NCBI GenBank assembly: GCA_000004985.1
Contig: GG738848.1
DNA length: 64,000 nucleotides
Direction: 5' to 3' (one strand)
DNA from: Naegleria gruberi
Lineage: Eukaryota
Each line of letters starts with the position of its first letter. Position 1 is the stretch's first letter. This document shows, in pieces, positions 27,182 through 64,000 of the stretch. The position numbers and the translations under genes are program-made. Under the pieces are notes generated by a model, which searched no databases, was not told the DNA's origin, and saw nothing but the letters and a program-made list of their open reading frames with translations.

Positions 27182-29173
27182 ATGAGCAAGGGAAGAGACG
27201 CAATTCTTAGATGGTGCCAACGTAACTCTTATGGTTATGATGGTGTAGAAATTGATAATTTTGATTCATCATTTGCCAGTGGTTTGGCATTCTGTGCTCT
27301 CTTGGACAGTGTAAGTTGTTTCTTTCACAAAATTCTAATTCTAGGTTTTTAAAATTTTAATCAATTTGATGATTTGAATTTTTCAATTTTAATATTTTCA
27401 AATTCTTGTGATGATGGTGATAATTGTTTTTTAATTTTTTACTCTGTGTAGCAACGTCCTGATCTTCTTAAGGAATCTGGATTGGAATGGAGCGACTTGG
27501 TTAATGATTTTAGCAGAAATGAAAGATTAGAATGGGCTTTCGGAAAGGCTGATGAAATTGGCATTCCAAGATTGTTGGACCCAGAAGATGTTGATGAACA
27601 AAAACCAGATCCAAAGGTTGTAATAACCTATCTCTCTGGAATGATTCGTTTCTTCCAGGAGGATGATGGTGGATCAGAGGCTACCATTGATAGACCAACT
27701 GGTTCTTTCGCTGCTTCCATTGATGATTTAATTAATGGTGGTGGAAAGAAGAAGCCTTCTGGTGGTGATCAAACACCTCCACCATCATCAGCTAAGGTTC
27801 CACAATTAAAGGCTACCGGAAAGTCTGATTCAACACCACCTGCTGCCTCTCCTAGAAAAGATGTACCAGTTGAAAAACAATTGGAAAATCTTGAAAAGAT
27901 GTACCAAAAGGGTTTACTTAACGAAGAATCCTATGAAAAGAGTAAACAAAAGATTATGGAAAAGATTAAGGAACAACAAGCCCAATTGAGTGCTAGAAGT
28001 GATCATTCTTCAAATTCCGAAACTTCATCCAATTCATCATCTTCTCAACAAACAACAAGTGAAGATAAGACACAAAAGGCTCTTGCCAACTTGCAAAAAC
28101 TCTATGAAAAGGGTACTTTATCTGAAGAAGAATATAAGAAGGCAGTTGAAAAATTGAAGGCTAAATCAGCTCCAGTTACTACAAGTGAAGTCAAACCACA
28201 ACAAACAACTGAACAATCATCATCTTCATCTTCAGTTGATACATCAAAATTCTCTCCAGAACAATTGAAGCAATATGAAAAATTGACCAAGATGCTTCAA
28301 AGTGGTTTATTAGGAGAAGCTGAATATCAAAAATCATTGAATAATTTAATTGATAAGGTCAACAAGTCTCAACCAAGTACAAGCTCACAACAAGAATCTC
28401 CAGTTGTCACCAAACAACCAAATCCACTCATTGAAAAGATTCAAGATACCAAAAAGTTGAATAATTTGAAGACTCTCCTCAACAAGGGTGTCATTACTGA
28501 AGAAGAATTTGATAAATCGATCACTAAGCTCTATCAACAAGAACAAGAAAAGCAAAATTCTGCTCCTTCCACTCCTCCACCAACTGCTGAACCATCATTT
28601 GATGGTGTTGATATTGATAGTTTGAAGGAAGAAGATTTTGATGAAAAGACTAAAGGACGTGTTAAGGCCATTGAAAGAATGTACAAGGCAGGTCTCTTCA
28701 AGGATAACGAATATGCCCATGCTAGAAGAAAGGCCATTATGCAAGGTCTTCAAGAAGCTGGTGGTAAATTCACTCCATCTCCTGTTACTGAAACAAAGGA
28801 ACCTGAAGTCAAGCCAGTTGCTGAAGAAAAGCCACAAAAGAAGAGAACTAACAGTGTTTTCATCCAACAACCTAATCTTCCAAAGGAAATTAATGCTGAT
28901 GTTGAGGATTATCGTATTCTCTATGAAAAGTTGTTGAAGGAACACGAAAAATTGGCAGCTGACTTTGATGAAATTCAAGAAGATTATGAGGAATTGAAGG
29001 AACAATTATCTACTGTCTATGATGAAAAGAAGAAGGATGTTGAAGTTCCAGAAGAACTCAAACCAGTCTTGAAGAAGATTGGCCTCAAGAAGAAGCAATC
29101 TGGTAAGAAATTGGATGTTGTCATTATTTATTCTTCTGATGATTCTCTCGTCACTGAAAAGGTCACTCTTTAA
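27182..29173 (+). CDS. Calponin-homology (CH) domain protein followed by five SHOCT-like repeats. Two exons: 27182-27310, 27452-29173
   Basis: CH domain …ILRWCQRNSYGYDGVEIDNFDSSFASGLAFCALLDS|QRPDLLKESGLEWSDL… is split by a 141-nt GTAAGT…GTAG intron. Five ~30-aa repeats follow: LENLEKMYQKGLLNEESYEKSK / LANLQKLYEKGTLSEEEYKKAV / LKQYEKLTKMLQSGLLGEAEYQKSL / LNNLKTLLNKGVITEEEFDKSI / VKAIERMYKAGLFKDNEYAHAR. They are separated by S/T/P/Q linkers, and a C-terminal coiled coil follows. Confidence 0.72.
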
Positions 29174-30975: not shown

Positions 30976-32904
30976 CTAAGGAAGCAAACTATTGGTAGTG
31001 TCTTTTCTTTCAAACCATGTACTCTTAATCCAAATTATTCTATTACAAATAACAGCAATTATCATGGCAATACATCCCAAAGACCAAATTACTTCTCCTG
31101 TAATTTCCAAAGATCTTTCATTAACTAAAAAGCAACCTGAACCAATTGTGAATAATAAACTACTTGTAATATTCAATAAATAAGCAGATAAATCAATTGA
31201 CATGAATGTAAAACATTTTACATTGATATCCATTCCATTCCTAGCAGATTTAATGATATCCACTTGTTTTACAATATATTGAATTATTGAAACAATTAAA
31301 TATGAAATAGCTCCAACAGACCAATTGACCTCTGCAATAATTACAATTAAAATAGGTGGATTCAACATGTATAACGAAGATCCAATTGTAAAAGTTAATC
31401 CTCCCAAAATTAAAAAGAAATCATTCACCATTTCCAAAATAATCATTTTCAATGGAGGTAAATCAGGAGGTCTATATGAACTAATATCTTGATGTAATTC
31501 ATGCATTTGATCTTTTAACCTTTTAGAACTTTCATTTTGTAAATTTGTAATTTCCTTCACTTTCTTCTCCCATCTGAAATGTCTAATTAAATTAATGACA
31601 TCAACCAAAGCCTTTCCCAATGGTCCAACAAGGAATAAAACTGATCCTATAATAAACAATAATATTCCCGAGAAGAAGAAGGTTACATTATTAGCAATCA
31701 ATAAACCACATCCAGCCACGAACAATGCTGCTCCAATCACAAACGAAATATCCAACAATGCAAAAGCAGCAATATTTAACCCTCTCATCATTATCAGAGT
31801 AGAGTTCTTCTGCTGATGATTCCCAACGAGAACAAGAATGGAAGAGGAAGGAATTTTGGAATTTTTTTCTCTTGTTTTGTTTGATTCTTCGTGTTCTTGT
31901 TTGATTGTTGTTGTAATATTCTGTTGGTGCTTCTTATTGTTGTTGACGATGGTCTTATTACTCCTGTGGAGAATTTCATGATGGAATTGTGAATGTTCAT
32001 CCTTGTTATCATCATGCTGAAGGTTATGTAGAAGGGAATTAATTTTCGAGTGTTCATCTCTGATCGATTGAAGAAGATCGAGTGTGCTATTGTTGTTATC
32101 TACTGCTGTTGAGGTTGACAATTGTTTGAGATTGTTTGAAGAGTTGGGTTGTTCTTGATGATGGAGATTAGTAAGAGAACCATCCAATGTATAGATTGAG
32201 AAGGTCTCTCCTTCTTCACTTGTTGTTGAAGTGCTACTATGACTTGAATTACTATAGGAAAGTGCATGGTGATACTTTCTTTGGGGAGGTTCTAATATAA
32301 TTTCATTGTTGTTGTCTTGTTCTTCATGATGTGATGATGATGAATTCATTACATTTCTTGAATAAGAAGGTTGAATAGAAAATGCTTCCATGTGAATAGG
32401 TTCAACCAATGTTTCCTCCAATTTACCAATTATTGATTTCTCATAATGTTGATTATCACATCCTGATGGAGGTGTAATATCTGGTTGTTGCTGATGATTG
32501 TTTTTTTCACAAAGAGAGGAAATAATTGATGGAGAAATCTTAGACAAATCAATTGTACTTGCATTCAGCATTTCAATATTCTCTCCAATAATATTATCTT
32601 TAGTTTCTAATGCTTTTTCTTGACAAGTTGAATCGCCTTGTTTCTTCTGCATGTTGTTGAATGGGTTTGTTTGCATTTTCTTATTAATTTGGTTGTGAGA
32701 GTCTGGCAACGAATCATGCAGCTGCTGAGAAGACATTCCAATAAATTTACCTTTCGTATAATTATTTTCTTCTGCATCCTCAATAATGTCCACAATAACA
32801 ACACTATTGCTTGAAGATCCGTGGTCGGCCGAATAGGAGAAATGTTTCTCTTGATTATTTGTCTTGCTATTTATGTGACTTGTTTTGAAATTCATAAAAT
32901 TCAT
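30976..32904 (-). CDS. Membrane protein with N/Q/S-rich N-terminal half and C-terminal six-TM region built from three internal 2-TM repeats (642 aa)
   Basis: Repeated units FVIGAALFVAGCGLL…FFSGILLFIIGSVLFLVGP, FLILGGLTFTIGSSLYML…WSVGAISYLIVSII, LLFTIGSGCFLV…IWSLGCIAMIIAVI. ATG 32902-32904. Confidence 0.55.
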   Translation of the reverse strand: MNFMNFKTSHINSKTNNQEKHFSYSADHGSSSNSVVIVDIIEDAEENNYTKGKFIGMSSQQLHDSLPDSHNQINKKMQTNPFNNMQKKQGDSTCQEKALETKDNIIGENIEMLNASTIDLSKISPSIISSLCEKNNHQQQPDITPPSGCDNQHYEKSIIGKLEETLVEPIHMEAFSIQPSYSRNVMNSSSSHHEEQDNNNEIILEPPQRKYHHALSYSNSSHSSTSTTSEEGETFSIYTLDGSLTNLHHQEQPNSSNNLKQLSTSTAVDNNNSTLDLLQSIRDEHSKINSLLHNLQHDDNKDEHSQFHHEILHRSNKTIVNNNKKHQQNITTTIKQEHEESNKTREKNSKIPSSSILVLVGNHQQKNSTLIMMRGLNIAAFALLDISFVIGAALFVAGCGLLIANNVTFFFSGILLFIIGSVLFLVGPLGKALVDVINLIRHFRWEKKVKEITNLQNESSKRLKDQMHELHQDISSYRPPDLPPLKMIILEMVNDFFLILGGLTFTIGSSLYMLNPPILIVIIAEVNWSVGAISYLIVSIIQYIVKQVDIIKSARNGMDINVKCFTFMSIDLSAYLLNITSSLLFTIGSGCFLVNERSLEITGEVIWSLGCIAMIIAVICNRIIWIKSTWFERKDTTNSLLP

Positions 32905-33603: not shown

Positions 33604-36600
33604 ATGTCCCAACAACAACAACAACAACAGGAGGAAGAAATTGATCCAACATTGTTGAATTATAGAAACTTGACATTGTATGTAAAAAAGGGTGAAAGTA
33701 AGGATGTTGTCTCGGCATTGATCAGAGAGAATGAAAGTTCAAGTCAATCATCCTCTTCCGAAGATATTCAAAATAATGTGGAGGAGGCTTTTTCCAAGAC
33801 TGTTGATGAATCTACATTCCGAATTGAAGAATTAGATGAGGAGAGTTTAGAAAAATTATTAGCAGAATTATTAAAAGATCAAGATGATCAAGAAGTGTCA
33901 ATTCAACAAAATTATCTAATGAGAGAACAATCACTAAAACCTCCAGAACCTGGTACTGTTGAAATTAAACAACAAGTTGAATTTCCTCCTAAATTAGATC
34001 AATTAGAAACTGCCATAAATTCTGTAGGAAATTATCTGGCAGAAAAGGCAACAGAAAACAAGAAACAAGAAACAAACTTTAAAATCATTAGATCTGTTCC
34101 AACTGGAAAGCAAAATTCGGAAATAAGTTCAGTACCATTTATTTCCATTACATTTAGTCATGATATGATTGAAGAATTTGATGGAGAACCAAAATCATTT
34201 GAAGAAATTGATTTTGTTGAAATTAGTCCAGTCACTGAAAATGTTAAGGAAGGAAAATGGAAATGGATTGGAACTAAATCTTTAGTATTTCAACCAAGAT
34301 TCAGATTTGATAGATCTAATGAATTCACTTACAAGATTCTGAAAGAAAAGACCAAATCTGTGTTTGGTAACACGATTGAAGAAGATTTGGTGGTCACTTT
34401 CAAAACGCCAACATCACGCACTCTCTCAGTTATTCCTTCGTCAACAAGTTTCCCAATTTCCGAACTTCCTTTCATTTTCCTTCAATTTGATCAAGATATG
34501 GATAAGCAAAGTGTTCTTGCACATTTGTCAATAACAGTTTCTTCTAAATCTATTGGTGTAGAAGTATTAGAAGAAACATCAATTATTTCCAAAATGTTGG
34601 AAGATTTGGATTATGCTAAAAAGTTTCCATATGTTTTTGGATCATACAATAGATGCCTTCAAGGCACATATGACCCAAAGAGGTGTATGTGGCTGAAGTT
34701 GCATATTGCCAATGAAACTTTACATGCTGGAAAGGATTATCCAAAAATTGGATTAGGAGAATATTTGAGTATTTTATTGAAAAAGGGGTATAAGAGTTTG
34801 GAAGGACCAATACCGTCAGCTCATGAATACTCGACAGGTATTTATGGTTATTCCAAAATGGCAGTCAACTATCATTACCCAAAGAAACATTTATTTTATA
34901 ATGATATTTATCCAGGATGTTCATTTACTTTCAGTTTCAACAATCCAATTGATTTGGACAAGATAGAAAGTATTGAAACATTTGTCCAAGTTGAACCAGC
35001 CATTAAAAATTATAAGGTAACTTGTAATGGTAATAGTATTGTAATATCTGGTGATACACTTGCTAGAGAAAAGTATCGTGTGAAAATATTGAAAGGTGTC
35101 CCTGATATTTATAATCAAAGCTTGGAAAATGAATATGAAGCAACTTTTGAAGTGAGCGGAGAAGATAGAGAATTCAACATGACTCTTTCAAACTCAACAA
35201 TTATGCCACCTTGCTTGTTTGATTCACAAGATCCTTTTCTTTACTTTGATTCTGTAAATATTCAAGAAACTCATGTTATTATTAATCAAGTTGATCCTGT
35301 AGAAATGTACAAGGAAAGCTCTTTTCCCAAGTTAGCTGCAAAAACAGTATTTAATTCATATGATAATTATGATTACTTTGATTGGTATCCTCGTAAACCT
35401 CACAAGATTGGAAAGGAAGTTTTTGATCAAAAGGTAAAACCTGATAACTTTGTAAAAGATAGAACAGTTTCAACCAAGATTATGTTATCTCAATATCTCC
35501 AAAATGGAAAGACTGGATCTCTACTTGTTCACATCAAACCAAAGAGATCTATTTTATACAACTTATTTAATGGATACGAAACCAAGTGGATTCAAGTTTC
35601 AAATTTGTGTGCTGATATTATTAGTATCACAGGAGAGAAGGCAGCAGTTTTTGTTACTGATTTCTCAACTGGAAAACCAGTTCCAAATGCCACAGTAACT
35701 TTATCCTATTCTACCAATAATACACCAACGAAAGATGAAGACTTGAATATTATCTCAACAAGTGAAACAACAAATGAAAATGGAATGGCCTTCTTTTCCT
35801 ACAGTCGTAATTATCACACTGTTTTGATCATTTCAAAAGATCAAGATCAAGTTGTGTACACAAATCCAACAATTTACTCTCATTCAATCCGAACCGACAC
35901 AATTTCTGCTCATATATTTAATGATCGTGGTCTTTACAAGCCAAATGAAAATGTACATATCAAAGGTTTCCTTAGAGATATCAAGTACAATTATGAAAAG
36001 GGTTCTGAGAACTATGGCACCTATTCTATTAGAGAACCATCCACTGAAACTAAAGCTACCTATGAAGTTCAGGATTCTCGAGGTGTCAAATATTTGGATG
36101 GAAAGATTGAATTGAGTCCAAGTGGATCCTTTGTATTGGATTTAACTGTTCCTGATAATGCTAATTTGGGTTCTCATTCCTTGACAATTTGCTATGGATC
36201 TAGAAAATTTAACCACACTTTCAATGTTCAAGAATTTAGAACAAAAGAGTATACAGTTTCTAGCAGCATTATTCCTTCATCTGATAAGGTGGATTTGTTT
36301 ATTGGTGACAAATTGGTAAATAAGGTCAGCGCAAAGTATTATAGTGGAGGTGGCTTGTCCAATTCCCAAGTTAACTACCAGTTCAACACAGAACCTGCAA
36401 CCTTTAATCCAGAAGGATGGAGTAATTATGTCTTTCAAGATACAGATCTCAGAAATAATTACAAGCTCAATACTCTTATTGAAAATATGAAATCCAAATA
36501 TCAAGTATATCAAAGCTTTAACAGTGCAACTGACCCAAGCGGAGATGATCATGCCTTTATGCAGTTGTGGGATCCAGAAAAAATAGTAACTGGTCCAATA

Positions 36601-39600
36601 AGCATTAATTGTAAAGCAAATGTTCAAGATATTAATAGACAAACACAAGGAACATCTAGTGAGGTTATTCTCCACTCTTGTAAATACTATGTTGGTATTC
36701 GCTGTACAAAGAGAGTTGTTATGAAATCTGATGAAAATATTGACTGCTTTTTCATTGTTACAGATATTAGAGGTAAAATTGTAAAGGATATTCCAATATC
36801 TGTAAAATTGGTCAAGTTTGGTTATGATTCTAGGGGTTATGAAAGATGGGAAACCACTAAACCAATCAAGGAAATTAATCTAACCTCTCAAAGTCAACCA
36901 CTTCTTCATACATTTACCCTCAATGAAAACACAAATGATACTGCCTATGGAGAGTATGCAATTTTGTGTGAGGTAAAAGAGAGTGAAAGACCAAAATTTA
37001 GATCAGGCATTAACAGATGTAGTATTCCAATTCGTAAATTTGGATTTAAAGAACACTTGACATCAAAGGGATACACTTCACTCAGCACCAATTCACTTGA
37101 GTTAATTTCTAATAAGTTTGAAACTGATGAATACGAGCCAGGTGAAGAAGCCAAAGTTTATATTGTCTCTCCATTCAATGGTGAGTGCTCTGGATTTGCC
37201 TGGGTTTTATGCAATGGATTAATCAAAGAGGAGAGATTTGACATTACTAACGGTATCCATGAATTGACCATTCCAATCAAGAAGGAATACAGACCTAATA
37301 TCCAAGTAAGAGTTCAATTATTTGGTACTGAAAATTATATTGATGTTGATGACAAGCCAAGAGTTAATCCAGCTCATGCTACTGGATCTCTAACCCTCAA
37401 TATTTCCAAAACCGAGCATGAACTCACTGTAACTGTCACTCCAAAGGACCCAATCTTGAGTCCAGGAAAAGAAACTGATGTCAGCATTCTCGTAAAAGAT
37501 AAGCAAGGAAACAATGTACCAAATTGTGAGGTTTGTTTAATTGTTGCTGATCAAGCTGTTTTAGATATGGCCAATTATTCAGTTACCAATCCAATGTTTA
37601 CCTTTGTTTCTAACAATTCATGCTCTGTTGATTTCTCTTCGATAAGAGATCGAGTAAGATATTGGTTATATCCAAGAAAAAATCAAAGAGATGAAGAAAT
37701 CTTAGCAATAAGACAACAGGCACTCCCTTCTTCAAATTTGTGTGCATGTGATTTAGCTGGTTGCAGTGGAGGCCGTTCGCGTAAATGCTGTGAACAATGT
37801 GGCGAATGTGACGATATGGCTCAAAAGGAATGCAAACGTGAAAAGTGTTGCAAGAAGTCATGTGGCCTTGCATGTTTTTCTAGAAGGTGTTGTAAAAATA
37901 GTAAGGATTCATATGATGGCTCACGATCCCAGATGCCATCTATGGATGATAGAAATGGTGTATTTGAAATTCGTTCCAACTTTAAACCAGATGCTGCTTT
38001 TATTGGATTTGCTCAAACTGATGAAAATGGATTTGCAAAGCTTGATTTCAAATTGACTGACGCTCTCACAAAATTCAAAGTTACAGCTGTTGTAAATGCT
38101 AAACAAGACATGTTTGGTATTGGTAATTCTGCAATTACTACCAATTTACCTATTGCAGTTAGACCATCACTTCCAAGATTTTTGAATTATGGAGATTTAT
38201 GTGATTTGACCTATGTTTTACAAAATCAAACAGATTCTGATTTGACTCTTTCTCTAGTATGTAATGTATCAAATCTCAGAATATTCAATGGAAAGGATAA
38301 AAATCAACGTAAGAAGGGATATACTGTTGTGATACCAGCAATGGGAAGAAAAGAAATTAGAATTCCTGTTCAAGTACTCAAATGTGGTAAGGCTCTTATC
38401 AATCTTGGAGTTAGAGTGGTTAGAGCCATAGCCAAGAATCCTGAAAAGCAAGAACTTGCCGATGGAATGGTTGGATGGTCAGATGCTGTCAAGAATGATT
38501 TCAAAGTTTTTACTCCAGTAACCAATGAAGCTTTTGCAACGTATGGAGATGTTAGTGCAGAAAGTGAAACTATTGTACAACCAATTTCACTTCCATCCAA
38601 GAATCTATTGGCACACTTTGGTGAATTCACTGTTAGTACTTCAACAACAGCTCTATCTACATTGACTGATTCTCTCATTTATCTCTATTCTTATCCATAT
38701 GAGTGTAATGAGCAAATTGCATCAAAGATTTTAGGTATAGTTTGTATGAAGGAAATGATCTTACAATTCTACACACCTGAAGAGCTTCAAAGATTGATGG
38801 AAATTTCTGGAGAGGAAGAAGTTAACACATTCATTAATTCCAACCTTGCTAGATTATTTGATCGTCAAAGATATGACGGAGCATTCTCATATTGGGATAG
38901 CAAGTTAATTGGAGACCCATTCTTAACATGTCATGTAGCTCTCTGTTTTGCAAAATGTAAATCTGAAGGTTACAAAATCCCAGATCAAATATTATCAAGA
39001 ACCAAATCCATTTTGAAGAATATTTCAAGTTTATTCTTCTTTGGATTCCTTTGGCCAAGATGTATTAAGGATACAATCAAATCATATGCCTATTATATTT
39101 TATCATTGTTAGCTGAAAGTGAATCTGATAAGGGACAGGTAATTTCTCTGTGTGAAGGAATTCTTGATCATTATAATAGCATTACTGAATTGACACAAGA
39201 ATTATCCCCAGAGACTGCTGCCTACCTTGCTATGGCCATTCATAAATGTAAGAAGGAACCAGTAACAGAAGAAAAGAAGGGCTTCTTTGCTAAATTTACT
39301 AAAGAAAAGATAACTATTCATCAATGGTTGGATGCTATCAAATCATACTTTAAGGAAAATGTAACAATTGACTCTGGAATTTATGCTCACTTTATTACTC
39401 GTTATGAAGATAATGAACTCGCTCAAATGGTTATGTTGCATTCAAATACCAGAACTGATGCTGTTGTTTTGGGTTGTTTGATGGAAATTGATAGAGAAGA
39501 CAGTAGTGATATTATTCAAAAATTGGTGAGAAGTTTGTTGGCTGCCAGAAATGCAAACAGATATGGTCGTTGGTATAATACTCAAGAAAATTCCATCTGT

Positions 39601-40404
39601 CTCATGTCACTCACTGATTATTTCAAGATATTTGAGAAGGAAATTCCAGATATGAATGTCAATACTTGGCTAGTAGATAGTACTAGACCAGAGGAAACTG
39701 TATTCATGGGTAATCAATCTTGGAAGGGAAGAAGTAGAGAAAAGAAAACTACATCATTACCACTTGTTGCCTTTGTTCCACGAAGTGATATTGAAAAGGA
39801 AGTTGTTAATCCAAATGAAAGTGATTCCAAAAAGTCATTCTTGTTGACAAAGAATGGAGCTGGAAGGCTTTACTATAGAATTGCTCTTTCATACACTCCT
39901 GAAGAATTGGTTCTCAAAGCTCTTGATAAAGGATTTTCAGTTTCCAGAGTTTACGAAGCAATTACCAACCCAGATGATGTCAAGTTTGACAAGTCAACAA
40001 AAACATGGAAGGTAAAATCAGGAGAATTAGTCAGAGTAACAGTTACGATTTGCAATCCAACCAGAAGATACAATGTAGCCATGGTTGACAAGATGCCAGC
40101 AGGTTTCGAAGCTGTCAATCCAGAACTCGATACACAATTTACTGATTTTGGAAATAGTGGCAATGAAGAAGATTTAGCAAACAAATACTATTACAAATGG
40201 TTCGAAAATCAAAACATTAGAGATGAAAGAGTTGAAGCATTCAGCAGAATCTTATATGAAGGCTCCCACGTTTACAGTTATATATGCAGAGCTACTACGA
40301 TTGGATCATTTGTTTCTCCTCCAGCTTATATCGAAGAAATGTACTCTCCTGAATGCTTTGGAAGAAGTAAGACTGAGTTTGTGCAAGTTTATGATAAAAA
40401 ATAA
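33604..40404 (+). CDS. Giant alpha-2-macroglobulin / thioester-containing-protein-like protein (2266 aa), single exon
   Basis: Thioester-like PYECNEQ (CxEQ) followed by TED-type RQRYDGAFSYW. Many MG-like beta-rich repeats upstream. A Cys-rich insert at 37735-37915 sits where a bait region would be. Poly-Gln N-terminus with no signal peptide. Confidence 0.65.
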   Translation: MSQQQQQQQEEEIDPTLLNYRNLTLYVKKGESKDVVSALIRENESSSQSSSSEDIQNNVEEAFSKTVDESTFRIEELDEESLEKLLAELLKDQDDQEVSIQQNYLMREQSLKPPEPGTVEIKQQVEFPPKLDQLETAINSVGNYLAEKATENKKQETNFKIIRSVPTGKQNSEISSVPFISITFSHDMIEEFDGEPKSFEEIDFVEISPVTENVKEGKWKWIGTKSLVFQPRFRFDRSNEFTYKILKEKTKSVFGNTIEEDLVVTFKTPTSRTLSVIPSSTSFPISELPFIFLQFDQDMDKQSVLAHLSITVSSKSIGVEVLEETSIISKMLEDLDYAKKFPYVFGSYNRCLQGTYDPKRCMWLKLHIANETLHAGKDYPKIGLGEYLSILLKKGYKSLEGPIPSAHEYSTGIYGYSKMAVNYHYPKKHLFYNDIYPGCSFTFSFNNPIDLDKIESIETFVQVEPAIKNYKVTCNGNSIVISGDTLAREKYRVKILKGVPDIYNQSLENEYEATFEVSGEDREFNMTLSNSTIMPPCLFDSQDPFLYFDSVNIQETHVIINQVDPVEMYKESSFPKLAAKTVFNSYDNYDYFDWYPRKPHKIGKEVFDQKVKPDNFVKDRTVSTKIMLSQYLQNGKTGSLLVHIKPKRSILYNLFNGYETKWIQVSNLCADIISITGEKAAVFVTDFSTGKPVPNATVTLSYSTNNTPTKDEDLNIISTSETTNENGMAFFSYSRNYHTVLIISKDQDQVVYTNPTIYSHSIRTDTISAHIFNDRGLYKPNENVHIKGFLRDIKYNYEKGSENYGTYSIREPSTETKATYEVQDSRGVKYLDGKIELSPSGSFVLDLTVPDNANLGSHSLTICYGSRKFNHTFNVQEFRTKEYTVSSSIIPSSDKVDLFIGDKLVNKVSAKYYSGGGLSNSQVNYQFNTEPATFNPEGWSNYVFQDTDLRNNYKLNTLIENMKSKYQVYQSFNSATDPSGDDHAFMQLWDPEKIVTGPISINCKANVQDINRQTQGTSSEVILHSCKYYVGIRCTKRVVMKSDENIDCFFIVTDIRGKIVKDIPISVKLVKFGYDSRGYERWETTKPIKEINLTSQSQPLLHTFTLNENTNDTAYGEYAILCEVKESERPKFRSGINRCSIPIRKFGFKEHLTSKGYTSLSTNSLELISNKFETDEYEPGEEAKVYIVSPFNGECSGFAWVLCNGLIKEERFDITNGIHELTIPIKKEYRPNIQVRVQLFGTENYIDVDDKPRVNPAHATGSLTLNISKTEHELTVTVTPKDPILSPGKETDVSILVKDKQGNNVPNCEVCLIVADQAVLDMANYSVTNPMFTFVSNNSCSVDFSSIRDRVRYWLYPRKNQRDEEILAIRQQALPSSNLCACDLAGCSGGRSRKCCEQCGECDDMAQKECKREKCCKKSCGLACFSRRCCKNSKDSYDGSRSQMPSMDDRNGVFEIRSNFKPDAAFIGFAQTDENGFAKLDFKLTDALTKFKVTAVVNAKQDMFGIGNSAITTNLPIAVRPSLPRFLNYGDLCDLTYVLQNQTDSDLTLSLVCNVSNLRIFNGKDKNQRKKGYTVVIPAMGRKEIRIPVQVLKCGKALINLGVRVVRAIAKNPEKQELADGMVGWSDAVKNDFKVFTPVTNEAFATYGDVSAESETIVQPISLPSKNLLAHFGEFTVSTSTTALSTLTDSLIYLYSYPYECNEQIASKILGIVCMKEMILQFYTPEELQRLMEISGEEEVNTFINSNLARLFDRQRYDGAFSYWDSKLIGDPFLTCHVALCFAKCKSEGYKIPDQILSRTKSILKNISSLFFFGFLWPRCIKDTIKSYAYYILSLLAESESDKGQVISLCEGILDHYNSITELTQELSPETAAYLAMAIHKCKKEPVTEEKKGFFAKFTKEKITIHQWLDAIKSYFKENVTIDSGIYAHFITRYEDNELAQMVMLHSNTRTDAVVLGCLMEIDREDSSDIIQKLVRSLLAARNANRYGRWYNTQENSICLMSLTDYFKIFEKEIPDMNVNTWLVDSTRPEETVFMGNQSWKGRSREKKTTSLPLVAFVPRSDIEKEVVNPNESDSKKSFLLTKNGAGRLYYRIALSYTPEELVLKALDKGFSVSRVYEAITNPDDVKFDKSTKTWKVKSGELVRVTVTICNPTRRYNVAMVDKMPAGFEAVNPELDTQFTDFGNSGNEEDLANKYYYKWFENQNIRDERVEAFSRILYEGSHVYSYICRATTIGSFVSPPAYIEEMYSPECFGRSKTEFVQVYDKK
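33608..33632 (+). repeat. CAA trinucleotide run encoding poly-Gln
   Basis: (caa)7 at the start of the A2M-like ORF. Confidence 0.9.
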
Positions 40405-50780: not shown

Positions 50781-53700
50781 ATGTCTTCTGAGGGATCATC
50801 ACTACTTGAAGGCTATTTCCACAAACAAGGACAAGGTGCTACCGGAGCCTCATATAAAAGAAGATGGTTTAAAGTGTATTCTGATCGGATAGAATACATG
50901 GTTGGTCCTAAAGATAAAAAGATTAAGGGTGATGTAAAAACATTAGATATGATTAGACTTGAAGATGGTTTTCATGGTCCAAATCAATTTAAAAATTATG
51001 GATTATCTCTTGTTACTGAAAGTAGAACATATAAAATTTGTTTTGAGGATGTTGTTACTAGACAAAGGTTTAAGGAAGTTGTTACAAAATTAATTCCTTC
51101 TACCGTCATACATCATGAAGAAAAACAAGATGACGATATTGATGATGATGAAGATATGCCTACTTTTGATGATAGTTCGGAAGAAGGTTTTGATGATTTG
51201 GAAATAGATAATTTTGATAAGGATAATGAAGAACACGAAGGTAAAGAAGATGAAGGATTAATGGACGATGGTGATGAAGAATTGGAAGTTAAATCCCATA
51301 TAGATATAAAAACAGATGATAGCAGGATGATCAAAAACCCTCTAATTCCTGATTACTTGGTAAGAGAAACTCCTTTTGGGTCTGTAAATAGTGATGATAG
51401 CAATAATTTCTCGAGTGGTGATGAAAGTTTTATGCCATCTACAAAAGATGATAAGAAGCATCTCAACCAAACTCCTCCGTCACAAGAATTAAAAATTAAG
51501 GAAGATTGGAGCGATTATAGCGATTATAGTGATGATGAGACTCTTCAAACTTCAAGACAAGAAGAACCAACAAACTCTACTGAGGAGGAAGTAATTATTA
51601 GTTCCCAAATTGAAATCCAATCGAAACTTCTTTTCCCTGAAAAGGATGTTGACGAATTACTGGAAGACGAAGAAAAAACAAGAAGAGAAACAAAAAGTTC
51701 AGATCACAAACAGGTGTCCTTGTTAAGTGAAGATAATCTTAATATAGGATCTTACAAGCATTTCATTGAAAGAATGACAGAACATGGAGAATCTGAAATC
51801 TTATGGAGTGGTTCTGTAAGAAAGGTGGTAAGAGGAAAGGTAAACAAGTTTGACGAAAGAAGTTTGGTTGTCACGAAATCAGCACTTTATCTTTTAACTG
51901 CAAAATCAAAAGGACTTGAATTCAAAGCCCGAGTTACATTCAGGGATATTTCTTCTCTTCTTATTAATGCATACGAAACAGAAGAGAAAGACTTCTTATC
52001 AATTTTGATCACAAACCCTGCAATCAACAATGGACATGATATGTTACTTGCATTCAACGATAATAGAGAAAAGTTTCTTGCTCATATCAAGAATGCGTTT
52101 GAGCAAAAAATGCTTAAGGAATTAATTGTCCATCTTGTTGATGACGTGACATTATATACAAGAACAAATAGAGCTGAGAGAAAGCCAATACCTCAACCTA
52201 TTTCCAAGGAAGATATCGTAACTTCAACAGATCACGATTATGCAAACTTTATTGTATCAGCAGATTGGAGATATCTTCTCAAACAATACGGAGACAGACA
52301 TATCTATTTTAGCGAGGAAATGTTAGTTAATAACACAAAACATGCTATTTTGATAACAAACTTGGCATTAATCAAAACAACAGACGCTAAAGTAAAAAGA
52401 AGAATAGAACTTGTTGATATATCAGAGATTTGGATTGACAATGCTGCCAAAGAAAACCTTCTAATCAAAGTACCTTCGGAGTATGACATATTTATTTCAA
52501 CAGCAAAGAGAAATGAAGCTGTTTCATCTTTACAAGAAGCTTTGGAAAAGTTAAAGGTAGACTTTAAACTTATTCAATCAGTAAACATTAAGGAAAAAGG
52601 TCAATTAAAGAAAACTGGAGATTACAGACAAAAAATGAAAAAGATGAAGGATCCAAAGAGAATTAAAGATCTAATGACACACGCAATTAAATCAAAGGAT
52701 GTTAGTGAGCTTGAAAAAGCAATTTGTAGCGCAAGAATATATGGATTAACAAACGATAAGCTGTATATCTTGTGCCTTCAACAAATACAAAAGATCAAGA
52801 CATCATCGATGGTACAAGAGGAGATGGAAGATGCCTATAAAAATTGTCATCTTAAGAAAATGAGAGAGCTTTTAAAGAAGGCTGAATCATTACGTCCACA
52901 TCTCACCCAATTGATTCATGTGATGACTCCTAAGTATACTGAACTTGTTAACACTAGGTTATTCAAAAAGAAAATGGAAGAAGCTATCAGTAAGAAGGAC
53001 TTTAGAATGATGAAGGATATATTTTCCAAAGCTCTTAGAGCTGGCTTGGCAGGTGATGTTGAAAAATACAAGCGAGATTATGATGCAGATGTACAAAAGG
53101 AATATTTGAGAGATCTGGTTTCTCAACATTTAGCTAATAGGGATGGAGACGCTCTTCGTCTTATTCTTATTGATGCTAAAAGTCTAGGCGTGGAAAATGA
53201 GAAAATTTTCCAAGAAGCTAAAAATTCAGTTTTGTTATTCAAAGAAGAAACTAAAATCAAAAGAAGATTAAATAAGGGTGTTGACGACGCTAACGACATA
53301 GGGAATATTGAAAAGTTGAGGGAATTGATTAAGGATGCAAAGGCCTTTGTTTCTACCAATCCTTCTATTTCACTCTCGAATACTATTGATTTTTGTAATA
53401 AGGAATGTGATAGAATCCAACAACGATTTTCTATTATTGAAAAGATAGATGAAGCCATCATGAAAAGAGACAAATCAGCAATTGATGAAATTATTGAGAG
53501 CAACAAACTTGATGATAGGTTGGATTTAACAAAAGCATATGAATGTCTAGATCACATCAATACTGATAGAGAACAAGAACAATTGGCAGCTATTTACAAG
53601 CTGGAAGAAACTCTTGATTCTCTGATTGTACTATATGACCATGAAACAACACCTGATAATGAAATCAAGTTGATGCAAATTATTGTTGAAGCAGAAATGT

Positions 53701-55540
53701 TTGTTGAATTGGGAGACTTGGTAGATTCTGCTAAAAATCTCATTCAAAAGAAGAGAATGGAAGCAAAGAGAAAGGAAAGAAAAATTCTCTCAATCAAATA
53801 TAGACTTGCTCAAGGTATTAAGGAAAGAGATATAGATGATCTTGAGACTGTTCTTGAAGAAGGACCATTTTATCCTGAATTGGCAACAGAGGTTCAAATT
53901 GCTAAAGAAATGTTAAGTGAATTATATCTTCATACACACGTTAAGGAAAATATCGTGGTGGTACCAGCTTTAACAGAAAAGGTTGAAAAGAAGGAAAATA
54001 CCTCAACTGGAAAATTCGAAGCCTTCCTAAAGAGTGCTCATATGTCCTTAGGAAGTGTTGAAAAGAGTGTTGAAGTCAAATTAGATTTTGAAGAATTGTT
54101 AGAAAAGAAGGATATTGTTGCTCTGGCTAAATTTATCAATAAGAATAAGCAGTTACTTACAAAAGAAGAAGCACAAAGAGCAACAGAAGTTATGGAAGAG
54201 TTATCATTGCCAAGTGCAACACCTGCAACTGCCACTGAATCATCAAAAGAGGAACTTCAAAAGAAGACAAAACCATTTTCATTCAACACAATGGTTTCAT
54301 CTCTCCATAGTAATATTATGAACTTGCTTAGTACTTGTGATGCAGACTCTATTGATCCAACATCAGGAAGATATGTTGTTCACTTATTCCCTCTTGGTGA
54401 TATCATTGTTAAGAATATTACATCAATTTTATATAATGGAACAAGAGTAAGTAGAAAATTTACTAACTTTGAAATCTTATCATTCATTAGAAAATTTATT
54501 GGATTAAAGAAAGAACACCATATGACATTTTTAAAAATCTTCAGGTTAGTGCTGTACAAGATGTAATTAGAGAATTTGAAGCCTTGGATCAAGTTCAACA
54601 TTTACCAAGTGATAACTTTGGAAAGACTGCTTCTCTTCTTCTGGTTCAATATTTACTTGATTGTGACTTCTTTGTTTATGCAATCAATCAATTGGCAATT
54701 GATGAAATGTACTTGCAAGAATGTTACGATAAGACTGCTATTTTATTTAACAAACAACTCAAAGATGAAATTTTGGGTGTATTCTCATTGCTCAATCAAT
54801 TTGATTTCCGTTTTGGATTTACCAAGGAAGTTGACGCAAAGGATGTTGCTTCTGCTAATATAGATCCACTTGCATCAACACAATCTGGCGTATCAATCAC
54901 GCAAACAGCTCAACCAAGTTTAAGTTTACAATTAACTTCAAGTACTTTGGACATGATTTCACTTTCACCTTTACTTCAATTGAAACAGTCAATCAAATCA
55001 ATTGTTCAGTTCTTCTATATGAAGAAGAATGATGAAAAGATGGATTTATATGATATTGGTGATGATTCAAAGAGTAGAGAAATTGATGTTCTTATAAGAA
55101 AGAAGCTTTGTTATTCATTGATGGATATTTTCTTGAAAGGATTTAAGAGTTTCTCAATATTCAAGACCTACCATGTTTGGAATGTGATTGAAGAAGCTGC
55201 AAGACTGAAAAAGTCATCTGCTGTTGATATTGGTGGTATTGGTATTCCATCGGCTGTTGAAACTGTTAACAAGATTGTTGAAGAGAGATTATCTTTAAAC
55301 ACCAAACAATTATCAAACATTGAAGATCTCAAGTTTAGAATCTTTGTTTGTTACTCATTGAATGATAATCAATTATCATACTTTATTCAATCTATTTTGA
55401 GAGAAAGTGATTTAATTAATAATTATTATGAAGCTGATTCATTGATAAGAAATTCCAACATTAGAGAAAAGGTGATTGGTTTCTTATCCAAGTTGGACAG
55501 ACTTCCATTTAACCTTTCTTTAACATCTGAATTGTTGTAA
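50781..55540 (+). CDS. Large PH-domain protein with acidic region and C-terminal RUN-like domain. Two exons: 50781-54544, 54571-55540
   Basis: N-terminal PH domain (EGYFHKQGQ…RRWFKVYSDRIEYM…YKICFED). Long in-frame ORF. The second ORF continues in frame if a 26-nt ag|GTTAGT…AATTAG intron is removed. An assembly frameshift is the alternative. Confidence 0.55.
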
Positions 55541-55558
55541 ATAAAAAATACCTAGATG

Positions 55559-58500: not shown

Positions 58501-59418
58501 TATTATAAATATTTAATAATAAATTACTCATTTGTTCAAATAAATAATTTAATTGGCAATGTTCAATTAATTTAGTAATTCCAAAACAAGTATGTACATA
58601 ATTAGAAATATTAAAATTTGTAATATTAAAAAAATCAGAATCATTAAATTCACTTAAATTAATTGGTTGTGATAATTTTAAAGAAGGTGTAATTGACCTT
58701 CTAAAAATAGATTTTGTTTTCTTTTTTTCTAAATTTATAATTAAATCTTCAGAAATTTTCTTATTTTTTAAAAAATCACTTAAAATTTCTATAAATGTAT
58801 TTGAATTTAAATCATTATTATTAAAATAACTTGTTTCATTTTTAATTAAAATTCTTAAAGCAATTTGTTGAATACTTGTATATTTAGAAGTAACTGCCCT
58901 TTTTAGATATTCTCTATATATAGTTTCAATTTCTTGTATATCTTTTAATTCTCCATTTATATTATTAAGAACATTACTTCCATTTATATTATTATTATTA
59001 TTATTATTAGTAGTATTATTAGTAGTAGTGGATGATGATGATGGTGATGAATTATTCCATAAATTACCACTATTAGATTTATTAGATGATAATCCATTTA
59101 AAATACTACTTGTATGATTATTCATACTATTATATTGTCTTGAATGTTGTTGTTGTTGTTCTTTCTTATTTCTTATATTCATTATATTCATTATACTATT
59201 ATTACTATTATTATTATTATTAGATCTACTACTATTATTTTTAAAAGAATTAGAAGTAGATGATAAATTATCAACACTATTTGAATAATTTGTTGTTGAT
59301 GATGAAATTTGTCTAAAAGAAGATAATTCATTCTTTCTTCTAATTTGATTTGTAAATTGTTCAAGTTTATCCAATGATAAATTTCTAATTAAAATTCTTT
59401 CAATAATTAATTCTTCAG
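55559..59418 (-). CDS. C-terminal portion of giant Asn/Ser-rich protein-kinase gene (continues across the assembly gap)
   Basis: 1271-aa ORF, open in frame right up to the N-run. Asn/Ser homopolymer tracts and a Leu-rich helical region. Confidence 0.6.
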
Positions 59419-59468
59419 NNNNNNNNNNNNNNNNNNNNNNNNNNNNNNNNNNNNNNNNNNNNNNNNNN
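59419..59468. other. Assembly gap (run of 50 N) inside a coding region
   Basis: Literal n characters. The ORF is open on both flanks. Confidence 0.99.
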
Positions 59469-63664: not shown

Positions 63665-63779
63665 CTTTTTTTAAAATTATTAAAATATTAAAATATTATT
63701 TATGGAAATTATTTAATATATATGGAAATTAATATATAAAATTAATATGAATAAATGAATATGAATGAATAAAACTTAC

Positions 63780-63930
63780 CTGTTATACTCATAAGAGGTG
63801 AATCACCAACTTTAAATTCACGTGTTAATCCAAAATCAGATAAATAAATTTGAGCATTTTCAATAATTTCCTTATATGATAAATTTGTATCATTTGTTTT
63901 TTTAGATTGTAATAAAATATTATCAGGTTT
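63780..63930 (-). CDS. Protein-kinase exon (catalytic loop to activation segment) of the same gene; more 5' exons lie beyond the window end
   Basis: KPDNILLQSKK…IYLSDFGLTREFKVGDSPLMSITG. GTAAGT donor (plus 63774-63779) and AATTTAG acceptor. A 115-nt AT-rich intron lies between this exon and the next. Confidence 0.65.
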
Positions 63931-64000
63931 CTAAATTATTTAAATATATTTATAAATATTAATAAATATTAATAAATTAAAAATATTAAAAATATAAAAA

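What the first reader, a model, noticed from the sequence alone, without database searches (positions are those of the whole stretch)
27182..29173. Eukaryotic CH-domain protein carrying five tandem SHOCT-like repeats
After an N-terminal calponin-homology domain, five ~30-aa repeats fit the bacterial SHOCT consensus (L..L..L/MY.KG.L/I.EEE%..K). They are spaced by S/T/P/Q-rich linkers. SHOCT is essentially a prokaryotic short C-terminal oligomerisation motif. Finding it multimerised behind an actin/microtubule-binding CH domain suggests domain capture by horizontal transfer, or a new cytoskeletal tethering module.
Basis: partly seen in the sequence, partly recalled or inferred. Interest (0 to 1): 0.65.

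Follow-up and report, generated by a model that had tools for sequence, protein, structure and literature searches.

The report
Naegleria CH protein with SHOCT repeats
This is a genuine, already-annotated Naegleria gruberi gene whose protein joins an actin-type calponin-homology domain to five small SHOCT helical hairpins and a coiled coil; SHOCT arrays were already reported in this amoeba, so it is an interesting but modest variant and not evidence of a fresh gene transfer.

Summary
The gene is 27182..27310 + 27452..29173, with a 141-nt GT..AG intron. It encodes a 616-aa protein 100% identical to N. gruberi XP_002681965.1 / D2V1U3.

Domain content:
- Pfam CH scores 69.3 bits and SHOCT 50.2 bits; both pass their cut-offs.
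- There are five in-register helix-turn-helix repeats. R1, R2 and R4 score about 26-27.5 bits alone, R3 is weaker and R5 is divergent.
- S/T/P/Q-rich linkers separate the repeats.
- A conserved five-heptad coiled coil and a conserved tail follow.

- SHOCT is mostly prokaryotic, but Eberhardt et al. 2013 already reported 14 SHOCT proteins in N. gruberi, some with several copies.
- The closest arrays are other heterolobosean proteins (Naegleria, Willaertia, Acrasis).
- The gene looks native: it has an intron, host-like GC3, and orthologues in three Naegleria species and Willaertia with all five repeats positionally conserved. Recent transfer is therefore not supported.
- An ancient origin of the domain by transfer cannot be tested with a 30-aa motif.

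The CH+SHOCT fusion was seen only in Naegleria and Willaertia.

Most likely function (inferred): a dimeric, probably abundant cortical linker. A CH2-type domain would engage actin, and multivalent SHOCT hairpins would bind membrane or partner proteins.

Interest is modest.

The parts
27182..27310 (+). Exon 1 (residues 1-43, first part of the CH domain)
   Evidence: The spliced translation is 100% identical to XP_002681965.1.
27311..27451 (+). Intron, 141 nt, GTAAGT...TAG, very AT-rich
   Evidence: The junction LLDS|QRPDLL is conserved in orthologues. The CH HMM match is continuous across it.
27452..29173 (+). Exon 2 (residues 44-616 plus the stop codon)
27194..27658 (+). Calponin-homology domain of CH2 type (residues 5-112; spans the intron)
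   Evidence: Pfam CH 69.3 bits. All the best PDB matches align to the second CH of spectrin, alpha-actinin or dystrophin, or to the lone CH of EHBP1, smoothelin or MICAL. 44% identity to the second CH of a fungal alpha-actinin.
27695..27736 (+). Conserved post-CH motif PTGSFAASIDDLIN (residues 125-138); predicted short helix
   Evidence: Invariant T126 G127 S128 F129 A130 I133 L136 I137. Helix 129-138 in the model, at low confidence. Function unknown.
27860..27979 (+). SHOCT repeat 1 (residues 180-219)
   Evidence: Pfam SHOCT 27.5 bits when scanned alone. Own profile 58.4 bits. Helix-turn-helix with pLDDT 81-90.
28064..28171 (+). SHOCT repeat 2 (residues 248-283)
   Evidence: Pfam SHOCT 26.3 bits and SHOCT_2 21.4 bits when scanned alone..
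28253..28372 (+). SHOCT repeat 3 (residues 311-350); weaker match
   Evidence: Pfam SHOCT 14.9 bits when scanned alone. 21-45 bits against the R1/2/4 HMM and hhalign probability 98.5%.
28436..28555 (+). SHOCT repeat 4 (residues 372-411)
   Evidence: Pfam SHOCT 26.7 bits when scanned alone..
28640..28759 (+). Repeat 5 (residues 440-479): a divergent SHOCT-like hairpin and one of the two most conserved repeats, net charge +5
   Evidence: No Pfam hit when scanned alone. 5-13 bits against the R1/2/4 HMM, versus a shuffle 99th percentile of 4.3; hhalign 87.5%, in register. 81% identity across orthologues. Charge.
28838..28888 (+). Conserved basic motif KKRTNSVFIQQPNLPKE (residues 506-522); contains an invariant R-x-x-S, a candidate basophilic-kinase site (inference)
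   Evidence: Invariant K, R, S, V and QPNLP in four orthologues.
28901..29032 (+). Coiled-coil helix (residues 527-570); heptad a/d positions at 530, 534, 537 ... 565
   Evidence: Single helix 527-570 with pLDDT about 80. A regular 4-3-4-3 hydrophobic spacing conserved in all full-length orthologues.
29045..29170 (+). Conserved C-terminal tail VPEELKP..KKI..KK..GK..DV.VIY...L.TEKV (residues 575-616)
   Evidence: Conserved in N. lovaniensis, N. fowleri and Willaertia. No Pfam family. Low-confidence beta-hairpin in the model.

Best explanation
Identity (shown). This is a native, vertically inherited nuclear gene of Naegleria gruberi (D2V1U3). It is conserved in N. lovaniensis, N. fowleri, an environmental relative and Willaertia magna. 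The protein is modular:
- an N-terminal lone CH2-type calponin-homology domain;
- a roughly 300-residue 'beads on a string' region, in which five SHOCT bi-helical hairpins sit on disordered S/T/P/Q-rich linkers;
- a conserved basic R-x-x-S motif;
- a five-heptad coiled coil;
- a short conserved tail.
It belongs to a heterolobosean expansion of SHOCT-array proteins and is the only branch found with a CH domain.

Mechanism (inferred). The coiled coil dimerises the protein. The CH domains engage F-actin or an actin-associated partner. The ten SHOCT hairpins of a dimer provide multivalent, individually weak contacts. These contacts would be with the inner face of a membrane, as predicted for bacterial SHOCT-like domains, or with a shared protein ligand. 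The molecule would then act as a flexible linker between cortical actin and membrane. Its strong codon bias suggests it is abundant.
For: - Identity and gene model.
- Domains: CH 69.3 bits, SHOCT 50.2 bits; scores for each repeat.
- The repeats are true SHOCT domains. 144 of 147 top hits of their profile among 1.84e9 proteins are Pfam SHOCT.
- The array is old. Repeats at the same position are 53-81% identical across orthologues; repeats at different positions are 16-38% identical. There is no DNA-level tandem repeat.
- Native gene: it has an intron, its GC3 lies within the range of its neighbours, and it has orthologues in two genera.
- Sister SHOCT arrays occur in N. gruberi (D2VS68), N. fowleri, Willaertia and Acrasis.
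- The CH domain is CH2-type, like the actin-binding-domain CH2 and the lone CH of EHBP1, MICAL and smoothelin.
- Structure: hairpins at pLDDT 80-90, disordered linkers, a long helix at 527-570, and conserved heptad a/d positions.
- The membrane-anchoring idea for SHOCT-like domains comes from Ravi et al. 2024 (PMC11237479).
- Codon bias is stronger than in 18 neighbouring ORFs (AAG 75% against 43%, GGT 63% against 35%, rare codons absent).
- Other SHOCT and CH proteins are among the most abundant proteins in N. fowleri secretome and vesicle proteomes. These are not this orthologue.
Against: - No experiment bears on this protein. No paper cites its accession numbers.
- From established knowledge, isolated CH2-type domains bind F-actin weakly or not at all. 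Actin binding is therefore not assured.
- The hairpins are hydrophilic (mean Eisenberg hydrophobicity -0.1 to -0.5), and all but R5 are close to neutral. They do not look like classic membrane-inserting amphipathic helices.
- The only experimental test of a SHOCT domain (one bacterial example, size-exclusion chromatography) did not support self-association, and no ligand is known.
- No solved SHOCT structure was detectable by sequence.
- The AlphaFold model used only 5 sequences and modelled the CH domain poorly.
Confidence: 0.4

Rival explanations
1. Horizontal domain capture. The SHOCT repeats entered this CH gene, or its recent ancestor, directly from a bacterium or phage. The protein would then be a chimera of eukaryotic and prokaryotic parts.
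For: SHOCT is overwhelmingly prokaryotic. The nearest single-domain neighbours of individual repeats are short SHOCT proteins from metagenomes. One sits in a phage-like contig and one in a bacterial genome bin, at 42-58% identity over 31 aa.
Against: - The five repeats are positionally conserved across Naegleria and Willaertia.
- The gene has an intron, host-like GC3 and host-preferred codons.
- SHOCT arrays occur in several other heterolobosean proteins, including in Acrasis. SHOCT is also found in trypanosomes, Dictyostelium and oomycetes.
- Any transfer would therefore be ancient and would not be specific to this gene.
- The sister repeats are about as similar to each other as the prokaryotic hits are to them. 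A 30-aa motif carries no signal about direction.
Confidence: 0.08
2. The SHOCT hairpins are self-association or hetero-association modules. The protein would cross-link with itself and with other heterolobosean SHOCT-array proteins (the D2VS68 family) into a multivalent network or condensate attached to actin. The hairpins would not bind membrane.
For: - The hairpins are amphipathic (hydrophobic moment 0.3-0.55).
- Many paralogous arrays have the same linker style.
- In bacteria SHOCT is associated with oligomeric proteins and overlaps predicted coiled coils.
- SHOCT-array proteins are abundant in N. fowleri proteomes.
Against: The one experimental test, a bacterial SHOCT fused to Cd4d3+4, gave no oligomerisation. 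AlphaFold shows no packing between the hairpins (pTM 0.20), though this is a weak test.
Confidence: 0.2
3. The CH domain targets microtubules or another non-actin partner, as the CH domains of EB1, Ndc80 and CAMSAP do. The protein would then act in the mitotic spindle or the flagellar apparatus and not in the actin cortex.
For: Lone CH domains are functionally plastic (established knowledge). Naegleria builds microtubule arrays only for mitosis and for flagellate differentiation.
Against: All the top structural relatives are the CH2 of the spectrin, actinin or dystrophin actin-binding domains, or the lone CH of EHBP1, smoothelin or MICAL (E 7e-20 to 1e-10). No EB1, Ndc80 or CAMSAP chain appears among the 60 PDB hits listed, of 61 found.
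Confidence: 0.1
4. The hairpins are helix-hairpin-helix-like nucleic-acid-binding units, one of the original hypotheses for SHOCT. The protein would then link nucleic acid to the cytoskeleton.
For: There are borderline matches of the repeat profiles to one HhH hairpin of topoisomerase V (E 0.03), and a Pfam Topo-V_HhH_2_2nd hit at 25.5 bits against a cut-off of 27. Eberhardt et al. noted the resemblance.
Against: The matches are below threshold. The repeats are near neutral or acidic apart from R5. No nuclear or nucleic-acid-related domain is present.
Confidence: 0.04
5. The repeats are not SHOCT at all. They would be a generic K/E-rich eukaryotic coiled-coil repeat that matches the short Pfam model by composition.
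For: The model is only 28 positions long. R3 and R5 fall below the Pfam threshold, and R2 and R4 fall 0.3-0.7 bits below it when scanned alone.
Against: - The whole-protein score is 50.2 bits against a cut-off of 27.
- Shuffled repeats score far lower.
- The turn glycine is invariant and the hydrophobic register is conserved in all 25 repeats.
- The reverse search returns 144/147 Pfam SHOCT proteins.
- No eukaryotic repeat family scores better.
- The predicted structure is a hairpin, not a continuous coiled coil.
Confidence: 0.02

Closest known systems
Heterolobosean SHOCT-array proteins: N. gruberi D2VS68 (NAEGRDRAFT_59074, the 8-repeat protein of Eberhardt et al. 2013), N. fowleri A0A6A5BPF1, Willaertia magna KAL9643143.1, Acrasis kona A0AAW2YY45
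   Same: They have several non-identical SHOCT hairpins strung on S/T/P/Q-rich low-complexity linkers, in the same lineage. They are the best multi-repeat hits to the repeat profile.
   Different: They have no CH domain, and they lack the coiled coil and tail of this protein. Their repeat numbers differ (up to 9) and their flanking regions are different.
Prokaryotic and phage SHOCT domain (Pfam PF09851; clan relatives SHOCT_2, DUF1707, GvpG)
   Same: They share the roughly 28-aa bi-helical motif L..L..L...G.(I/L)(T/S).EE(Y/F)..K...(I/L). Identity to individual repeats is 42-58%. Tandem copies also exist in bacteria, for example the triple SHOCT of P0040.
   Different: In prokaryotes the domain is usually single and C-terminal. 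It is often attached to membrane proteins, band-7 or PLD-N domains. Here there are five internal copies in a cytoskeletal eukaryotic protein.
Lone CH2-type CH proteins with coiled coils: MICAL, MICAL-L, EHBP1, smoothelin, SPECC1
   Same: They have a single CH domain of the same subtype (PDB hits at E 6e-14 to 1e-10) combined with a coiled-coil region. They work as adaptors between actin and membranes or vesicles (established knowledge).
   Different: This protein has no LIM, bMERB, C2 or mono-oxygenase domain. Its central region is a SHOCT array, which those families lack. No orthology is implied: identity is only 32-40% over the CH domain alone.
CH2 of the alpha-actinin / beta-spectrin actin-binding domain
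   Same: These are the best sequence matches to the CH domain (44-47% identity; E 7e-20 to PDB 1wyq).
   Different: Those proteins carry a CH1+CH2 tandem, and CH1 supplies most of the actin affinity. This protein has no CH1, no spectrin repeats and no EF hands.

Membership tests
SHOCT (Pfam PF09851) | Whole-protein score above the Pfam gathering threshold (27 bits) | tested here: met
   50.2 bits in 4 stretches. SHOCT_2 scores 41 bits against a cut-off of 24.
SHOCT (Pfam PF09851) | Each individual repeat recognisable as SHOCT | tested here: inconclusive
   Scanned alone: R1 27.5, R2 26.3, R4 26.7, R3 14.9 bits, R5 no hit. With a lineage-specific profile R3 is clear (21-45 bits). R5 is marginal (5-13 bits; hhalign 87.5%).
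SHOCT (Pfam PF09851) | Two amphipathic helices of about 28 aa in total, joined by a short turn with a conserved glycine | tested here: met
   The glycine is invariant in all 25 repeats of the five orthologues. AlphaFold gives helix-turn-helix at pLDDT 80-90 for all five. Hydrophobic moments are 0.16-0.55.
SHOCT (Pfam PF09851) | Reciprocity: a profile of the repeats retrieves SHOCT proteins | tested here: met
   144 of the 147 best non-orthologous hits among 1.84e9 representatives are Pfam SHOCT.
SHOCT (Pfam PF09851) | Typical placement: a single copy at the extreme C-terminus | tested here: not met
   There are five internal copies at residues 180-479 of 616. This placement is typical but not obligatory: multi-copy and N-terminal cases have been published.
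Calponin-homology domain (Pfam PF00307), CH2 subtype | Full-length match to the CH profile above threshold | tested here: met
   69.3 bits against a cut-off of 26. Residues 5-112 cover profile positions 4-108 of 109.
Calponin-homology domain (Pfam PF00307), CH2 subtype | Closest relatives are second CH domains of tandem actin-binding domains, or lone CH2-like domains | tested here: met
   Every one of the 49 strongest PDB hits (E <= 7e-10) aligns to CH2 positions (for example alpha-actinin 137-239, spectrin 175-278) or to the lone CH of EHBP1, smoothelin or MICAL. Weaker filamin hits also align to CH2 positions. The alpha-actinin P0007 aligns at 345-450.
Calponin-homology domain (Pfam PF00307), CH2 subtype | F-actin binding | not testable with these tools
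   This needs co-sedimentation or localisation experiments.
Spectrin/alpha-actinin-type actin-binding domain (CH1+CH2 tandem) | Two consecutive CH domains | tested here: not met
   Only one CH stretch is present. The residues after 113 are a low-complexity linker.
Recently transferred (xenologous) gene | Atypical composition, no introns, patchy presence among close relatives | tested here: not met
   The gene has an intron. Its GC3 is 0.272 against 0.253 +/- 0.031 in neighbours, and its RSCU correlation with them is r = 0.84. Orthologues exist in N. lovaniensis, N. fowleri and Willaertia.

The most novel reading that the evidence does not exclude
Heterolobosea recruited the otherwise prokaryotic SHOCT hairpin into a family of abundant multivalent 'beads-on-a-string' proteins. 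The CH-5xSHOCT-coiled-coil member would then be a previously unrecognised type of actin-membrane (or actin-organelle) tether. That would give the first tractable system for finding out what a SHOCT domain binds, a question open since the domain was described in 2013.
Probability: 0.25. Interest if true: 0.5.

Novelty: new member of a known kind. Interest (0 to 1): 0.3.

Why it matters
SHOCT is one of the most widespread small domains with no known ligand or solved structure. It is missing from the usual model organisms.

A eukaryote strings five conserved copies behind an actin-type CH domain and keeps each copy close to the bacterial consensus. This suggests that the hairpin has a portable, conserved binding activity, and it points to where in the cell to look for it.

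For Naegleria biology the protein is a candidate abundant cortical linker, in an amoeba whose motility depends entirely on actin. The human pathogen N. fowleri has an orthologue (A0A6A5BER1).

The finding does not show a new transfer event, and it does not change what was already published about SHOCT in Naegleria.

Tried and rejected
- Word-index homology searches with the repeat profile and with the C-terminal module returned nothing. They did not even return the proteins the profiles were built from, so these negatives are uninformative.
- I suspected that the N. fowleri 'SHOCT domain-containing protein' A0A6A5CCE5 (69 kDa) or the 66-kDa CH protein A0A6A5C551, both seen in secretome and vesicle proteomes, might be the orthologue. 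They are not. The orthologue is A0A6A5BER1 / XP_044557123.1, 699 aa.
- No paper cites any accession of this protein or of its orthologue. The held supplements of the SHOCT paper do not list it.
- The weak C-terminal hit to PRKG1_interact (20.1 bits against a cut-off of 32.4) is generic coiled-coil similarity and not membership.
- The GvpG, Topo-V HhH, DUF1707, CARD and EAD11 hits overlap the SHOCT hairpins. GvpG reaches its whole-protein cut-off (35.9 bits against 30.6) but not for any single repeat (at most 25.3 bits). The others are sub-threshold. I read all of them as echoes of the same bi-helical motif.
- PDB sequence searches with two SHOCT profiles found no solved SHOCT domain.
- 43 metagenomic loci encode related CH domains (31-51% identity). 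None has SHOCT repeats within 3 kb. The scan used only two CH peptide patterns, so it has limited power.
- The window holds no other SHOCT-like sequence, and the repeats are not a DNA-level tandem repeat.
- Neighbouring genes (alpha/beta hydrolase, endonuclease/exonuclease/phosphatase family, YrhK-like, glycosyltransferases) give no functional clue.
- I did not run a fold search. The full-length model is low-confidence overall (pTM 0.20), and isolated two-helix hairpins give non-specific matches.
Full report
**What is there**

The window is AT-rich eukaryotic DNA, about 30-36% GC over most of its length. At the flagged position, a 129-nt exon (27182..27310) ends in AGT. A 141-nt intron follows (27311..27451, GTAAGT...TAG), and then a 1722-nt exon runs to the stop codon at 29171..29173.

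The spliced translation is 616 aa. It is 100% identical over its full length to the annotated 'calponin homology domain-containing protein' of Naegleria gruberi, with accessions EFC49221.1, XP_002681965.1 and UniProt D2V1U3.

The junction sequence LLDS|QRPDLL is conserved in N. lovaniensis and Willaertia magna. The Pfam CH match runs through it without a gap. No cDNA evidence was available to me.

**Checking the observation**

Against Pfam the protein scores as follows:

| Pfam model | Score (bits) | Cut-off (bits) | Notes |
|---|---|---|---|
| CH | 69.3 | 26 | residues 5-112 |
| SHOCT | 50.2 | 27 | four stretches |
| SHOCT_2 | 41 | 24 | |
| GvpG | 35.9 | 30.6 | overlaps the same hairpins |

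Each repeat was then tested on its own:

| Repeat | Pfam SHOCT alone | HMM built from R1/R2/R4 of five orthologues |
|---|---|---|
| R1 | 27.5 bits | used to build the HMM |
| R2 | 26.3 bits | used to build the HMM |
| R3 | 14.9 bits | 21-45 bits; hhalign probability 98.5% |
| R4 | 26.7 bits | used to build the HMM |
| R5 | no hit | 5-13 bits; hhalign probability 87.5%, P 3.6e-6, in register |

One thousand shuffles per repeat class gave a 99th percentile of 4-6 bits and a maximum of 8.6-10.9 bits. One caveat applies to R5: I anchored the register on the turn glycine, which favours finding the match.

The turn glycines are at residues 197, 264, 328, 389 and 457. AlphaFold used only a five-sequence alignment. 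It models each repeat as a helix-turn-helix at pLDDT 80-90 and the linkers below 50. Linkers L1-L3 are 62-81% S/T/P/Q.

The reverse test also passes. A profile of the repeats was run by HMMER against 1.84 billion representative proteins and found 295 proteins at E <= 1e-3. Of the 147 best non-orthologous hits, 144 are Pfam SHOCT proteins.

Three repeats are canonical, one is weaker, and the fifth is a divergent relative.

**Age and origin of the array**

Orthologues carrying CH plus SHOCT repeats exist in the following:

| Source | Identity to the N. gruberi protein |
|---|---|
| N. lovaniensis | 59% |
| N. fowleri (A0A6A5BER1 cluster) | 55% |
| an environmental Naegleria-like contig | 62% |
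| Willaertia magna | 47% |

- All have five repeats in the same order.
- Repeats at the same position are 53-81% identical between species. Repeats at different positions are only 16-38% identical.
- There is no DNA-level tandem repeat.
- The five-repeat array is therefore older than the Naegleria-Willaertia split.
- R5, together with its acidic lead-in (EEDLDEKT.GR.KAI.RMY..GLFK), is one of the two most conserved repeats. This hints at a specific role.

The gene also looks native:
- It has a spliceosomal intron.
- Its GC3 is 0.272, against 0.253 +/- 0.031 for 18 neighbouring ORFs.
- It uses the host's preferred codons, only more strongly (AAG 75% against 43%, GGT 63% against 35%, rare codons absent). 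I read this as a sign of high expression, which is an inference.

**What is already known**

The paper that defined SHOCT (Eberhardt et al. 2013, PMC3581485) counted 790 bacterial, 53 archaeal, 15 phage and 19 eukaryotic species. It has a section on N. gruberi reporting 14 SHOCT proteins, two with three copies and one (D2VS68) with eight. It also lists trypanosome CorA proteins, Dictyostelium and oomycete alpha-kinases.

'Essentially prokaryotic' is therefore fair, but eukaryotic multi-copy SHOCT in this very organism is published. The precomputed Pfam annotation of this protein already shows PF00307 + PF09851.

The CH fusion itself is not discussed in any paper I could find.

In my search, the best multi-repeat relatives after the orthologues are these:
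- the D2VS68 cluster;
- N. fowleri A0A6A5BPF1;
- a Willaertia protein;
- an Acrasis kona protein.

This is a heterolobosean expansion of SHOCT arrays with the same linker style. None of these proteins, nor any other of the 147 hits, has a CH domain or the C-terminal module. 43 metagenomic loci encoding related CH domains also lack SHOCT repeats nearby, though that test has limited power.

**Horizontal transfer**

Each repeat's nearest neighbours outside the orthologues are short metagenomic proteins with a C-terminal SHOCT, at 42-58% identity over 31 aa. That is as close as the sister repeats in the same protein, which are 42-45% identical for R1-R4 and 23% for R5. One such neighbour lies beside a phage tail-tube gene. 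A triple-SHOCT protein lies in a bacterial genome bin.

This shows that every repeat is held near the general SHOCT consensus. It does not give a direction or a date, because a 30-residue motif cannot carry a phylogeny.

Recent capture into this gene is not supported. An ancient bacterial origin of the domain in Heterolobosea or Discoba remains open.

**The other parts of the protein**

- **CH domain.** It is of the CH2 subtype. Every strong PDB hit aligns to the second CH of beta-spectrin, alpha-actinin, dystrophin, utrophin or plectin, or to the lone CH of EHBP1, smoothelin or MICAL. The best E-value is 7e-20. No EB1, Ndc80 or CAMSAP chain is among the 60 hits listed, of 61 found.
- **Post-CH motif.** A short conserved motif, PTGSFAASIDDLI, follows the CH domain.
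- **Basic motif.** After the repeats comes a conserved basic motif, KKRTNSVFIQQPNLPKE, with an invariant R-x-x-S. It is a candidate site for a basophilic kinase (inference).
- **Coiled coil.** Helix 527-570 has a regular 4-3-4-3 hydrophobic spacing at residues 530 to 565, conserved in all full-length orthologues. It is a five-heptad coiled coil.
- **Tail.** The 40-residue C-terminal tail is conserved and matches no Pfam family.

**How it most likely works**

*Shown:* the modular anatomy, its conservation, the membership of the repeats in SHOCT, and the CH2 type of the CH domain.

*Inferred:*
- The coiled coil makes a dimer.
- The CH domains contact F-actin or an actin-associated partner.
- The ten hairpins of a dimer sit on flexible linkers and provide multivalent weak binding.

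The only functional prediction in the literature for SHOCT-like domains is anchoring to the inner leaflet of the membrane (Ravi et al. 2024, PMC11237479). On that basis the protein would be a flexible actin-membrane tether. In logic it resembles the lone-CH adaptors EHBP1 and MICAL-L, though it is not related to them beyond the CH domain.

Against this:
- The hairpins are hydrophilic, and all but R5 (+5) are nearly neutral.
- Isolated CH2 domains are weak actin binders (established knowledge).
- The one experiment on a SHOCT domain found no self-association and no ligand.
- No solved SHOCT structure is detectable by sequence. The only near-match is one helix-hairpin-helix of topoisomerase V at E about 0.03.

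I put the tether mechanism at about 0.4. A SHOCT-SHOCT network model gets about 0.2, and the remaining rivals get less.

**Verdict**

The feature is real and correctly described. The protein is an annotated member of a published phenomenon, SHOCT arrays in Naegleria. What is particular to it is a lineage-restricted fusion to a CH2-type domain and a coiled coil, seen only in Naegleria and Willaertia within the limits of my searches.

It is not evidence for a new transfer event. Its value is as a handle on the unknown function of SHOCT and as a candidate cortical linker in Naegleria. I rate interest at about 0.3 and novelty as a new member of a known kind.

Noticed in passing
window 33604..40404 (+): A single uninterrupted 2266-aa ORF encodes a bacterial-type alpha-2-macroglobulin (Pfam bMG10 104.6 bits, A2M_BRD, MG2, A2M) in this Naegleria nuclear contig. 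It is a candidate gene of bacterial origin, and more suggestive of transfer than the SHOCT protein is.
   Followed up: partly
window ~55500..64000 (-): GC drops to 18-23% here, against 30-36% elsewhere. The region still carries two very long ORFs. 55559..59374 (1271 aa) has no Pfam hit. 59415..63650 (1411 aa) matches, in its first 107 residues, only the C-lobe of a protein kinase, so the N-lobe must lie in an upstream exon. There are many TAT/ATT-type microsatellites, so these are probably Asn/Ile/Tyr-rich low-complexity proteins.
   Followed up: partly
window 27182..29173: The CH-SHOCT gene has much stronger codon bias than 18 neighbouring ORFs (AAG 75% against 43%, GGT 63% against 35%, CGT 29% against 6%, GTC 32% against 10%). 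GGG, CCC, CCG, CTA, CTG, ACG, GCG, GTG and AGG are absent. This is consistent with high expression, which has not been verified.
   Followed up: partly
literature (N. fowleri proteomes): A 'SHOCT domain-containing protein' (A0A6A5CCE5, 69 kDa) and a 66-kDa CH-domain protein (A0A6A5C551) are among the ten most abundant proteins in N. fowleri conditioned medium. The SHOCT protein is also in extracellular vesicles (PMC12089049, PMC9312180). Neither is the orthologue of this gene. They do show that SHOCT-array proteins are abundant in Naegleria.
   Followed up: partly
repeat profiles against the PDB: The only near-match of SHOCT profiles to any solved structure is one helix-hairpin-helix of Methanopyrus topoisomerase V (residues 384-407, LEEIERMYEEGRLSEEAYRAAV; E about 0.03). 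This echoes the HhH resemblance noted in 2013.
   Followed up: no
P0055, P0099, P0110 (Acrasis kona A0AAW2YY45 and metagenomic relatives): These SHOCT-array proteins also contain repeated non-SHOCT modules of about 100 aa with the motif '...FLNNIPAS...PF...', with no Pfam name among the 25 most frequent families listed. This may be another heterolobosean-specific domain that partners SHOCT arrays.
   Followed up: no
window 50781..54566 (+) and 30976..32904 (-): One gene encodes a PH + myosin-TH1-tail protein with no motor domain in the ORF. Another encodes a protein with two YrhK-like membrane repeats, a family better known from bacteria.
   Followed up: no
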